Virus genome (UHGV): UHGV-0113241
Strand: one strand, 5' to 3'
Length of the DNA stretch: 10,314 bases
DNA from: a virus
Each line of letters begins with the position of its first letter. The first letter of the stretch is position 1. This document shows positions 6,001-9,000 of the stretch, piece by piece. Made by a program: the position numbers.

Positions 6001-9000
6001 GCCCCCTGAGCAATTCGACCAGCAAGTGTTGGTGCCTGTACCGCCGCTCTCTCAACGCCAGAAGGAGTGAGGTAAGGCAATGCCTCAGCAAATACCCTGC
6101 CCTCTGTAGTTTGTGGAGTCAGCGCGCCTTGCTGAAGGCCAAAGTCCTGCTCTAATCCCTGCGTTGTTACTCGTGGCGCTGGTTGATATGTACCATCGCC
6201 AATGCCGAGTTTACCGCCAGCCCAAGCCGCCGCACTTGTTACAGCATCGGCAACTGATGCAGGTATGTTTGCCACGTTCACGCCAGCCTGCACCAGTCCG
6301 CGACCAGTCTCTCTTACTGCTTCGCCAAGATCAGACATAAATCCACTTTGCTGTGGTTGTTGCTGTGCTAATGGTTGTTGTGTCTCCACTGGCTGCACAG
6401 ATGGCAATGGATAGGCAGCATAGAAAGCTTGCTTAGCCTGCTCTGCATTTTCTCCGGCTTGCGGGGCCACGACTTCATTGAAGTATTGCTCCTGAGCCTG
6501 CGCTTTTTGTTCTGGTGCTAACGCCTGATACTGTGGAGAGGCGATAACATCTTTCCATGCTTTAGCCATTAATCACCCCATAGTGAAGAAAAGTTACTGC
6601 TGGCTGCTGGCTGTGATACCTGTGCAGGTTGAGATTGCTTCCGCTGAGATTTACCAACATTAACGTTATATTGTTGGTTGTAATTGTTGGTGTATTCCTG
6701 AATTTCACGAATCGACTGCTGCATAGCCTCCGGGCTTGAATAGTCAACCTGCGGCATCCCCTGAAAATACATCTTCGCTTCTGCAACGGTGTTAATACCA
6801 CTGGCACCCATGTCCCTTGCTGCCGCCACGCCCTGATTCTGCATTCTTCCCTGAATACGTTGTGCTGAGTTATATAACTGGCGCTGCTCTTTTCCTGTTA
6901 ATCGGCTGCGAACATCAGCACCAATTGCCGGGTTACCTGCGCCGCCGGTCATTCCTGTCATGAAATCGAGAGCAGAAGCATCTGCATTTGAGATCGCGTC
7001 GATATCCTTCTTCATGGCATAGTTTTGTGCTGATGCAGACGATGTTGCAGGCGCTGCGATTGAACTGGCAGGAACGCGAACCATATTCCCCTCGTTGTCG
7101 ATGCCTTCGTAGAACGCATTAGCCCCAGCGCCGTGAAGTTTCCCGCCAACCGTTACAGTTCTGCCATCTGATAACTGAACTGTACGCTCATCATTCCCAG
7201 CGGTTCCTCTTGTTGACGCTCGCTGTATTGCCAAATCCTGCCCGCGTCGCGCAGTAGAAGCAGATAAATCCTGACCGCGCATCGTGATGTTCTGACCTCG
7301 CGCTGTTAGCGCCTCGCCAGCCTGATTGCTGCGGATTGTCTCTGCAAGTTTTCCGCGATCAATCTCACGCCCAACGATTCTGTCTTGCGCCTGAAAATAT
7401 TGCTCTGGACCAAGTGCAGCCATTCCAAGGTGATCAACAAACTCTGTGAAACCTTGTGGATTTTGCTGATACATTTTCGCCACATCCAGAGGGTCTACTC
7501 CGGCACGAGTAAGCTCAGATGAGTTGTTCTGCAACCATGACATCATGGCTTCTGGAGATGAAGCTGCCAGTCTGGCACTTGCTGCCAGTGTGCCGACAGT
7601 GGAACGCTGGTCTTCATCGACAAATTTCATGCCGTTTCTTACAGCGTCAAACTGCTCAGGATACTGTGATGCCAGTTTTCGCATTGCATCGCGGTCACCA
7701 GATGTATATGCATCAGCATAAGCCTGCTGAAACTCTTGCTGTCGCTTCTGCTGATCCATCTGCTTATACATATCCATGACAGATGAAATGCCCTGCAAAG
7801 CCTGCAAGCCAACGTTATTACGTCCTGAACGCTCCATCTCGTTATTCTGTCGAATGTATGCAAGCGTGGCGTCTGCATCACTTGCTCTTGGAGCGTTGGA
7901 GTTCATGCCGCCTAACCCGGCAAGAAGCGCGCCTGAATTACCAGCCTGTTGCCATGTAGCCAAGAGACACCTCCATTAAAAAAGTGAACCAAGAAGACCG
8001 ACGCCAGCACCAATTGCTGTACCCCAACCAGGCATGATTGCAGTACCTGCAGCTGCACCTGCTGCCGCTCCACCCAAGGCGCTCTGAAATCCTGATGGTT
8101 TATTCGCATTAGCCGCAGATGCTGCCGCCTGCTGTTGATACAATTGGCTGACGTTGTTGGCATAGTTCTGCCCGGCGTTTGCCTGACCTGTAAGAGCGCC
8201 AAGGCCGATATTTGCCAGATTGTTGTAGTTGTTCATCTGACCTGACAGCCAGTTTTGACCGAGTGTAGGTGCGATTGCTGCTAACTGGTTTCCTGTTGCT
8301 GTAGAGCCTAATCCACCCGTTGCCTCTGCTGCTGCCAGACTCTGGTAACGCGCCTGCCCTGCAAGGTCTTTGTACTGCTGGGAGTTGTAATACTGGTTAA
8401 GCGCCTGACCTTGCCCCTGAAGAGAGGAAAGATTTTGCAACTGTGATACGTACTGCTGAGCGAGTGGCGTGAACGGTGCAAGGTTCTGCATATTCGTCTG
8501 CCACATTTCACGTTGCAGTTCGATGCCCTTTTCAGTTGCGCGTGCCTGGGCTTTAGATCCGGAGTCGCTGCCTCCTTTCATATACCCATTCATGGGAAGC
8601 AATTTATTCTTGAAGCTTTCGCTAAGTACTAACATTTAATAGCTCCTCATATTTCGAACGAGGTAATTGATAGAGGGTGATTCCAACCGGTTTCCCGTTA
8701 CTCATGTACGCATCATCAAGGTGACCAACACGGGTAATGATTAACAGCCCATGACAGGCAGACGATGATGCAGATAACCAGAGCGGAGATAGTTGATAGC
8801 CTTTTGTTTGTCGTTCTGGCTTAGTTCGTGCTTACCACAGAATGCAGCCATTCCGAATCCGGCTTGTGATTGCGCCATCCCCATAGCAGCCATCACATCA
8901 GTACCGGAAAGAGAGTCAGAAGCCGTAGCCCGTGGTGAGTCGCTCATCATCGGGCTTTTTGGCGAATGAAATTTAGCTACGCTTTCGAGTCTCATCGTCT

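What the first reader, a model, noticed from the sequence alone, without database searches (positions are those of the whole stretch)
8622..8800. Deletion junction: lambda-type Q cut at about codon 70 and joined to the region just upstream of the ejection-protein genes
Similarity to the lambda Q N-terminus ends after '...KQKAINYL' (around 8786), followed by 14 unrelated codons and a stop. Only ~100 bp further on the same strand the gp7-like gene begins. In every P22-like or lambdoid genome I know, Q is followed by the lysis cassette, terminase, portal, scaffold, coat and head-completion genes before gene 7, roughly 15-20 kb. Their absence, with all remaining genes on one strand in the canonical order, argues for a single internal deletion or a recombination between two prophages. 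The element would then be unable to lyse or build capsids, and late transcription could no longer be Q-dependent because the Q DNA-binding domain is gone.
Basis: partly seen in the sequence, partly recalled or inferred. Interest (0 to 1): 0.6.

Follow-up and report, generated by a model that had tools for sequence, protein, structure and literature searches.

The report
Two-step deletion scar in dead prophage
This is a scar in a decayed P22-like virus embedded in an E. coli chromosome, where about 13-14 kb of lysis and capsid genes were lost at two closely spaced breakpoints; it is a real but ordinary example of prophage decay.

Summary
On the minus strand, an 84-aa ORF (8995-8741) is 100% identical to lambda Q over residues 1-70, then diverges. 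The gp7-like ejection gene starts 105 nt after its stop. The junction is compound, not single. The "14 unrelated codons" are an out-of-frame reading of a 59-bp piece of the lambda-type Rz spanin gene (8791-8733, Rz codons 8-26). Q joins Rz at a 5-bp microhomology (TATCT). Rz joins the last 37 codons of the gp14-like gene at a 4-bp microhomology (TACC). About 1.9 kb (rest of Q, the Q-to-holin interval, holin, endolysin) and about 11.4-12.1 kb (rest of Rz, terminase through most of gp14) are missing. The same double junction occurs, essentially identical, in independently assembled gut-metagenome and Logan contigs beside argW/yfdC of E. coli. It is absent from 5,426 complete E. coli genomes. In a longer contig of the same element, a third microhomology junction (N'/'ninB) has removed immunity and replication genes. 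This is a multiply deleted cryptic P22-like prophage made by illegitimate recombination. The retained Q fragment lacks the DNA-binding body and zinc ribbon. Low interest: a new member of a well-known kind.

The parts
8741..8995 (-). 84-aa chimeric ORF. It comprises lambda-type Q codons 1-70, then 14 codons of Rz DNA read out of frame, then a stop codon. It is a pseudogene remnant of the late antiterminator.
   Evidence: ORF list. Residues 1-70 are 100% identical to lambda Q PDB 7UBM. Pfam PF03589 covers only profile positions 1-53 of 87.
8787..8791 (-). Junction 1: 5-bp microhomology TATCT, shared by the Q parent (...AACTATCT|GATGCAA) and the Rz parent (...GCGATTATCT|CCGCTC).
   Evidence: Three-way comparison with Q and Rz of E. 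coli UID2309220010 and N1083 prophages.
8733..8791 (-). Island of lambda-type Rz (i-spanin) DNA, codons 8-26. In its own frame it encodes the transmembrane segment ISALVICIIVCLSWAVNHY. The part that is uniquely Rz is 8737-8786 (50 bp).
   Evidence: 59/59 identity to the 'lysis protein' gene of E. coli N1083, L001 4087-4145. 98.3% identity to Rz of phage vB_EcoP-720R6 and of UID2309220010. Translation in the Rz frame.
8733..8736 (-). Junction 2: 4-bp microhomology TACC, shared by the Rz parent (...ATCATTACC|GTGATAAC) and the gp14-like parent (...GGCGCTACC|CGTGTTGG).
8622..8736 (-). 3' remnant of the gp14-like (DUF2824) gene: the last 37 of 155 codons plus the stop. It overlaps the gp7 start as in intact phages.
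   Evidence: 98% DNA identity to vB_EcoP-720R6 starting exactly at 8736. Translations compared.
7976..8635 (-). gp7-like DNA ejection protein gene. It extends to both ends of its homologues, although it is 7 aa shorter (219 vs 226 aa).
   Evidence: Pfam PF25688 at 1.7e-91. Aligns end to end with the UID2309220010 homologue (residues 1-219 to 1-226).
6569..7963 (-). gp20-like ejection protein gene, full length.
   Evidence: Pfam PF16928. 464 vs 464 aa in the homologue.
4572..6569 (-). gp16-like ejection protein gene, full length.
   Evidence: PF26808 listed for the identical gene in L003-L006. 665 vs 665 aa at 98% identity.
2497..4407 (-). Tailspike gene with the P22-type head-binding domain.
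   Evidence: Pfam PF09008 at 2.3e-67. A gene of the same length is present in the intact prophage of E. coli 47-1826.
8992..10264 (-). nin-region genes upstream of Q' (ninF, an 89-aa ORF, ybcO, rusA, ninH). They are intact and collinear with lambdoid phages.
   Evidence: ORFs. Pfam labels on the identical loci. 98% DNA identity to many phages.

Best explanation
The region is a compound deletion scar in a cryptic P22-like (Lederbergvirus-type) prophage integrated at argW of an E. coli strain.

Structure (shown). Reading the minus strand, lambda-type Q is cut after codon 70 and joined at a 5-bp microhomology (TATCT) to codon 8 of the lambda-type Rz spanin gene. After 50 bp, Rz is cut at codon 26 and joined at a 4-bp microhomology (TACC) to the last 37 codons of the gp14-like gene.

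What is missing (shown by comparison with relatives). The first gap is about 1.9 kb: Q codons 71-207, the Q-to-holin interval (by established lambda gene order the site of PR'/qut/tR'), holin and endolysin. The second gap is about 11.4-12.1 kb: the rest of Rz/Rz1, terminase, portal, scaffold, coat, gp4, gp10, needle and most of gp14.

Mechanism (inferred). The joints were made by RecA-independent, microhomology-mediated illegitimate recombination. I cannot separate two routes. Two successive deletions has about 50% probability. One replication template-switching event with two forward jumps has about 40%.

Consequence (inferred from domain maps and gene content). Q' keeps only the disordered N-terminal segment and cannot bind the QBE or load on RNA polymerase. 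The remnant cannot lyse the cell, package DNA or make heads. The still full-length gp7/gp20/gp16/tailspike genes have lost their late promoter and are probably silent cargo. Outside the window, the same element has also lost immunity and replication genes at a third microhomology junction. The whole prophage is therefore locked in and inert.
For: - Q identity ends at 8787.
- Window 8791-8733 is 59/59 identical to Rz.
- gp14/gp7 identity (98%) begins at 8736.
- Exact microhomologies come from three-way parent comparisons. By my own estimate, about 1% of random joints would have 4 bp of microhomology and about 0.3% would have 5 bp.
- Gap sizes come from collinear comparators.
- An intact relative at argW, with the same int/acyltransferase/tailspike end, shows the canonical order Q-S-R-Rz-...-gp14-gp7.
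- The same double junction is in four independent contigs, 0-1 mismatch, with tRNA-Arg(CCT) and yfdC next to int. That flank is 98.6% identical to E. coli.
- A third junction, N'/'ninB, with microhomology TTACC, is in L003.
- Other argW P22-like prophages carry their own, different internal deletions.
- Lambda Q domain boundaries are from PMC9388147.
- No sigma-70-like promoter was found on the minus strand in 7900-10314.
Against: - No intermediate carrying only one junction was found, so neither the order nor the number of events is shown.
- The parent sequences used are relatives (98-100% identical at the joints), not the true ancestor.
- Silence of the retained late genes is inferred only from a crude promoter scan and from loss of the late promoter region. 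No expression data exist.
- All carriers are essentially identical, so selection on the retained genes cannot be assessed.
Confidence: 0.88

Rival explanations
1. A single simple deletion from Q codon 70 to just upstream of gene 7.
For: The overall loss of the late region between Q and gp7 is real.
Against: A 59-bp segment 100% identical to Rz codons 8-26 lies between the Q part and the gp14 part. Each side has its own microhomology joint. One cut-and-join cannot produce this.
Confidence: 0.02
2. Recombination between two different prophages. A lambdoid one would supply nin-Q and a P22-like one would supply gp7-to-tailspike, with loss of the chromosome between them.
For: The Q/nin module is shared by lambda-like siphoviruses and P22-like podoviruses, so on sequence alone the left part could come from either.
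Against: - P22-like phages and prophages with exactly this lambda-type Q and Rz exist (HK620; the UID2309220010 argW prophage).
- Q, Rz and gp14 keep the order and orientation of one genome.
- The joints are 4-5 bp microhomologies inside ORFs, not shared homologous blocks.
- The longer contig continues into a normal early-left operon of one element.
Confidence: 0.04
3. The remnant is a domesticated module. The cell has been selected to lose every lethal function but to keep tailspike, ejection proteins, acyltransferase and recombination genes for its own benefit. A variant of this idea is that the Q' N-terminal peptide interferes with the Q protein of superinfecting lambdoid phages.
For: - All three junctions remove killing or autonomy functions, while gp7, gp20, gp16 and tailspike remain full length.
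- Residues 1-44 of lambda Q are the part that enters the RNA-exit channel.
Against: - No promoter is evident for the retained late genes.
- Carriers are near-identical, so intactness may simply mean the deletions are recent.
- The acyltransferase is out of frame in this allele.
- Q 1-60 is disordered and needs the body for loading.
- Nothing tested here shows benefit.
Confidence: 0.07
4. Metagenome assembly chimera.
For: The window is identical to metagenome-derived contigs.
Against: - The same two joints occur in ENA assemblies and in Logan assemblies of different runs, and on a contig of 247 kb.
- k-mer assemblers do not join sequences at 4-5 bp overlaps.
Confidence: 0.01

Closest known systems
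Intact P22-like prophage at argW of E. coli 47-1826 (NZ_CP184839.1), and phages vB_EcoP-720R6, HK620 and Sf6
   Same: Same integration site and the same right end: intS, AT3 acyltransferase, tailspike, gp16, gp20, gp7 (94.5% identity over window 1-8504). vB_EcoP-720R6 is 98% identical across the gp14 end and gp7 start. HK620 has the same Q allele up to codon 70.
   Different: These carry the full Q, lysis cassette and head genes between Q and gp14. The window lacks that ~13-14 kb and has two junctions in its place.
Other internally deleted argW P22-like prophages of E. coli (strains N1083 and UID2309220010)
   Same: Same locus and phage type. They have truncated genes joined in frame-independent ways: Q'/'holin, 'coat and gp10' in N1083, and Rz'/'portal and 'gp14 in UID2309220010. 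These include very short gene islands.
   Different: The breakpoints differ in every case. Neither has the junctions seen here.
Classical cryptic lambdoid prophages of E. coli K-12: CPS-53/KpLE1 at argW, DLP12, Rac and Qin (from general knowledge, not tested here)
   Same: Chromosomally locked prophage remnants that have lost modules by deletion. CPS-53 uses the same IntS/argW site.
   Different: Different gene content is retained. The present remnant keeps a complete ejection-protein/tailspike block and a Q stub.
Lambda Q antiterminator (PDB 7UBM, 4MO1; PMC9388147)
   Same: Residues 1-70 are identical.
   Different: It lacks the four-helix body with HTH (61-113, 153-207) and the zinc-ribbon arm (114-152) needed for QBE binding and loading onto RNA polymerase.

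Membership tests
Lambda-type Q antiterminator (Pfam PF03589; PDB 7UBM) | N-terminal 60-residue segment that forms the exit-channel torus. | tested here: met
   Residues 1-70 are identical to lambda Q.
Lambda-type Q antiterminator (Pfam PF03589; PDB 7UBM) | Four-helix body with the HTH that binds the QBE (residues 61-113 and 153-207). | tested here: not met
   Only residues 61-70 remain. The alignment to the 207-aa protein stops at 70-72. Domain limits are from PMC9388147.
Lambda-type Q antiterminator (Pfam PF03589; PDB 7UBM) | Zinc-ribbon arm (residues 114-152). | tested here: not met
   Absent. The ORF ends at residue 84 with Rz-derived out-of-frame codons.
Lambda-type Q antiterminator (Pfam PF03589; PDB 7UBM) | Late promoter, QBE and terminator immediately downstream of the gene. 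| tested here: not met
   The sequence after codon 70 is Rz and then gp14. The 1.9-kb Q-to-Rz interval of the comparator is missing. No minus-strand promoter-like site was found.
Rz i-spanin | Complete gene with start codon, N-terminal transmembrane segment, periplasmic coiled-coil domain and embedded Rz1. | tested here: not met
   Only codons 8-26 (the transmembrane segment) are present, without a start codon.
P22 gp14-like (DUF2824) protein | Full-length gene of about 155 codons. | tested here: not met
   Only the last 37 codons are present.
P22-like ejection-protein set (gp7, gp20, gp16) with tailspike | Three consecutive full-length genes with family matches, followed by a tailspike carrying the head-binding domain. 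| tested here: met
   PF25688, PF16928 and PF09008. PF26808 on identical loci. All align to both ends of their homologues; gp20 and gp16 have the same length and gp7 is 7 aa shorter.
Defective (cryptic) prophage | Integrated at a bacterial attachment site next to its integrase. | tested here: met
   tRNA-Arg(CCT) and yfdC lie beyond int in L004 and L005. The flank is 98.6% identical to E. coli.
Defective (cryptic) prophage | Loss of modules essential for the lytic cycle, with truncated genes at the joints. | tested here: met
   Lysis and head genes are missing in the window. Immunity and replication genes are missing in L003.
Defective (cryptic) prophage | No particle production or plaque formation on induction. 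| not testable with these tools
   Needs induction of a carrier strain.
Phage satellite (PICI/P4-like) | Own replication or primase module, plus genes that redirect helper packaging. | tested here: not met
   No such genes are in the window or in the 5.5 kb further upstream in L003. The replication region is deleted.

The most novel reading that the evidence does not exclude
All three junctions of this element could be products of one replication-based, multi-jump template-switching event. These are Q'/'Rz, Rz'/'gp14 and, outside the window, N'/'ninB. All are forward jumps at 4-5 bp microhomologies, and two of them share the core TACC. Such an event would have removed every lethal or autonomous module of the prophage in a single step, a one-hit route to prophage disarmament rather than gradual decay.
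Probability: 0.12. Interest if true: 0.45.

Novelty: new member of a known kind. Interest (0 to 1): 0.15.

Why it matters
Mostly it does not. This is a clean, well-resolved example of how prophages are disarmed by microhomology-mediated deletions.

Its modest value has three parts.
- It corrects the annotation. The 84-aa 'antiterminator' is a Q::Rz chimeric pseudogene.
- It shows that apparently single deletion scars can hide tiny gene islands that record extra breakpoints.
- It adds to a set of argW P22-like prophages with independent multi-breakpoint deletions. That set could be used to study the deletion spectrum acting on prophages.

The phase-variable-looking acyltransferase next door is arguably the more interesting lead.

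Tried and rejected
Searches for intermediates:
- Exact 24-nt patterns across junction 1 and junction 2 were scanned in genome contigs, viral contigs and metagenome contigs. All gave zero matches.
- A 131-bp query across both junctions against 5,426 complete E. coli genomes found no place spanning either joint.
- These collections also lack the double-junction form, so the absence of single-junction forms says little.

Readings rejected:
- A naturally short Q-family protein. The alignment to lambda Q is identical to residue 70 and then stops, and the tail is Rz DNA.
- Assembly chimera. Independent assemblies agree.
- Satellite or transducing-element readings. There is no replication or packaging function.

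Other checks:
- A promoter and terminator scan of 7900-10314 found nothing on the minus strand, and overall counts were at shuffle level.
- A literature search for microhomology deletions in defective prophages returned nothing relevant.
- I could not obtain the 247-kb contig that carries the fusion ORF, so attR and the state of xis are unknown.

Full report
**Layout of the window.** All phage late and nin genes lie on the minus strand. Read 10314 to 2497, they are:
- ninF, an 89-aa ORF, ybcO, rusA and ninH
- an 84-aa Q-like ORF (8995-8741)
- gp7-like (8635-7976), gp20-like (7963-6569) and gp16-like (6569-4572) ejection genes
- a tailspike with the P22 head-binding domain (4407-2497)

On the plus strand are an IntS-type integrase (14-1216) and an AT3 acyltransferase gene (1307-2448) split into two ORFs.

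**Check of the observation.** The 84-aa ORF is identical to lambda Q (PDB 7UBM, 207 aa) over residues 1-70 and then diverges. Pfam's Antiterm model is matched only over profile positions 1-53 of 87. Against phage records and 5,426 complete E. coli genomes, DNA identity of about 98% to rusA-ninH-Q ends in every record at window 8787. The gp7-like gene starts 105 nt beyond the stop codon.

**What the "14 unrelated codons" are.**
- One E. coli genome (N1083) gave a second aligned piece under its 'lysis protein' gene.
- Direct alignment shows that window 8791-8733 is 59/59 identical to the 5' part of the lambda-type Rz gene. It is 98.3% identical to Rz of phage vB_EcoP-720R6 and of the UID2309220010 prophage.
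- In the Rz frame it reads ISALVICIIVCLSWAVNHY, the transmembrane segment of the i-spanin.
- In the Q frame it reads RSGYLHHRLPVMGC-stop.

**The gp14 side.** Identity (98%) to the gp14-like/gp7 region of vB_EcoP-720R6 begins at 8736. The retained gp14 piece is the last 37 of 155 codons.

**The two joints.** Three-way comparison with parental-type sequences defines both exactly.
- Junction 1: TATCT (8791-8787). Q parent ...AACTATCT|GATGCAA; Rz parent ...GCGATTATCT|CCGCTC.
- Junction 2: TACC (8736-8733). Rz parent ...ATCATTACC|GTGATAAC; gp14 parent ...GGCGCTACC|CGTGTTGG.

Microhomologies of 5 and 4 bp are each expected at well under about 1% of random joints (my own estimate from base-matching probabilities). 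Both joints therefore look like microhomology-mediated illegitimate recombination.

**How much is missing.**
- The first gap: in the UID2309220010 prophage, which has the same Q allele, the interval from the Q breakpoint to the Rz breakpoint is 1,937 bp. It holds the rest of Q, the Q-to-holin interval, holin and endolysin. By established lambda biology, PR'/qut/tR' lie in that Q-to-holin interval.
- The second gap: in vB_EcoP-720R6 the interval from Rz codon 26 to the gp14 breakpoint is about 11.4 kb. In the apparently intact argW prophage of E. coli 47-1826 it is about 12.1 kb, and there it holds Rz/Rz1, KilA-N, terminase, portal, scaffold, coat, gp4, gp10, needle and most of gp14.

**Where it lives and how real it is.**
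- The exact 84-aa chimeric protein is recorded on 7-9 contigs from ENA gut-metagenome assemblies and Logan assemblies, the longest 247 kb. It is absent from NCBI records.
- Four of the contigs were retrieved. Two contain the whole window at 100% identity. Two contain 8,189 bp of it with 0 and 1 mismatch. All have both junctions.
- Beyond the integrase lie tRNA-Arg(CCT) and yfdC. This flank is 98.6% identical to E. coli. The element is therefore a prophage at argW of an E. coli lineage.
- No complete E. coli genome carries either junction. Neither junction pattern occurs in the species-representative genomes, IMG/VR or JGI metagenome collections.

**Wider state of the element.** Contig L003 extends 5.5 kb beyond the nin end of the window. 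There, the C-terminal part of an N gene (antisense) abuts the C-terminal part of ninB at a third joint with microhomology TTACC. This removes the N amino terminus, PL, immunity, cro/cII, replication genes and the start of ninB. The prophage has therefore lost immunity and replication, Q and lysis, and packaging and head modules, each at a short-microhomology joint inside genes. The remaining late genes extend to both ends of their homologues, although gp7 is 7 aa shorter. Two other E. coli argW P22-like prophages show their own, different multi-breakpoint deletions. This kind of decay is recurrent at this locus.

**Mechanism and function.**
- Shown: the architecture, the breakpoints, the microhomologies and the missing gene sets.
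- Inferred: the joints arose by RecA-independent illegitimate recombination, either slipped or template-switched replication or microhomology end joining.
- One event or two: the 50-bp Rz island could reflect two successive deletions or one event with two forward template switches. My rough estimate for two independent deletions leaving so small an island is about 0.4% with random endpoints. It rises to roughly 10% if the large deletion came first and the second was selected only to remove holin and endolysin. Complex events are themselves a minority of deletions. I rate the two routes at about 50% and 40%. No single-junction intermediate was found.
- Function: lambda Q residues 1-60 are an intrinsically disordered segment. 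DNA binding and loading onto RNA polymerase need the body (61-113, 153-207, with the HTH) and the zinc-ribbon arm (114-152) (PMC9388147). Q' is therefore a dead stub.
- Expression: the late promoter region has been deleted and no promoter-like site lies on the minus strand of 7900-10314. The retained ejection and tailspike genes are most likely unexpressed, but this was not measured.

- Right about the deletion, the loss of lysis and capsid capacity, and the loss of Q function.
- Wrong about a single breakpoint and about the tail codons being unrelated.
- The two-prophage recombination alternative is unlikely. Q, Rz and gp14 keep the order and orientation of one genome, and the joints are not in shared homologous blocks.

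**Verdict.** This is a real feature, fully explained as a compound deletion scar in a multiply deleted cryptic P22-like prophage. It is a new instance of a well-known phenomenon and of low interest. The most novel reading not excluded is a single multi-jump replication event that disarmed the prophage in one step. I give this about 12% probability.

**Seen in passing.** The acyltransferase gene is interrupted by a perfect 10-bp repeat, GCCAGCAACA x5 (2106-2155). The repeat lies exactly between the two halves of the AT3 domain.
- Tract lengths in the four other alleles found are 30, 39, 39 and 90 nt, all in frame.
- The window's 50-nt tract is out of frame.
- This looks like a slipped-strand contingency locus in a prophage-borne O-antigen-modifying gene.
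- From my own knowledge, it is analogous to the heptanucleotide repeat of neuO in the argW P22-like prophage CUS-3 of E. coli K1. A paper on K1 O-acetylation surfaced, but I did not read it.

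Noticed in passing
window 2106-2155 (within the acyltransferase gene 1307-2448, + strand): A perfect 10-bp tandem repeat, GCCAGCAACA x5, splits the AT3 acyltransferase into 288-aa and 150-aa ORFs. The split falls exactly between the two halves of the Pfam domain. Copy numbers of 3, 6 or 9 would be in frame. Four other alleles have tracts of 90, 39, 30 and 39 nt, all in frame (E. 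coli 47-1826, LF4-1, IMG/VR L012 and L013). This is a candidate slipped-strand phase-variable O-antigen acetyltransferase. From my own knowledge, it is analogous to neuO of prophage CUS-3.
   Followed up: partly
L003 about 4223-4227 (same element, 1.3 kb beyond the window's 10314 end): A third deletion joint. The C-terminal part of the N gene (antisense) is fused to the C-terminal part of ninB at the microhomology TTACC. This removes PL, immunity, cro/cII, replication genes and the ninB start.
   Followed up: partly
window 8733-8736 and L003 4223-4227: Two of the three junction microhomologies share the same core (TACC and TTACC), and the flanks are partly similar (GCGCTACC versus GCGCTTACC). 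This may be coincidence (about 1/256, judged post hoc) or a preferred break or annealing motif. It is unexplained.
   Followed up: no
L001 (E. coli N1083) 3306-3610 and 4995-6545; L008 (E. coli UID2309220010) 12819-13932 and 16814-17065: Other P22-like prophages of E. coli (shown to be at argW for UID2309220010) carry independent internal deletions. N1083 has Q cut at about codon 77 and joined to the holin 3' end, plus 'coat and a 69-bp gp10 island. UID2309220010 has Rz' joined to 'portal, plus 'gp14. Multi-breakpoint decay with tiny gene islands appears recurrent in this prophage type.
   Followed up: partly
window 1-13 and L004 12315-12389: The window starts 13 bp upstream of the integrase GTG. 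tRNA-Arg(CCT) (argW) and yfdC lie just beyond it. The attachment site is therefore on the 5' side of int, and int, acyltransferase and tailspike stay contiguous in the integrated state.
   Followed up: yes
window 2497-4407 (- strand): In most relatives only the N-terminal head-binding domain (about 114 aa) of the tailspike is conserved. The receptor-binding part is shared with E. coli 47-1826, one of only two complete E. coli genomes that also carry this acyltransferase (the other, LF4-1, was not examined for its tailspike). This suggests a linked serotype-specific tailspike/O-antigen-modification cassette.
   Followed up: no
window 9826-10095 (- strand): An 89-aa ORF sits between ninF and ybcO and has no Pfam match. 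It occupies the position taken by other small nin-region ORFs or an antirepressor gene in relatives.
   Followed up: no
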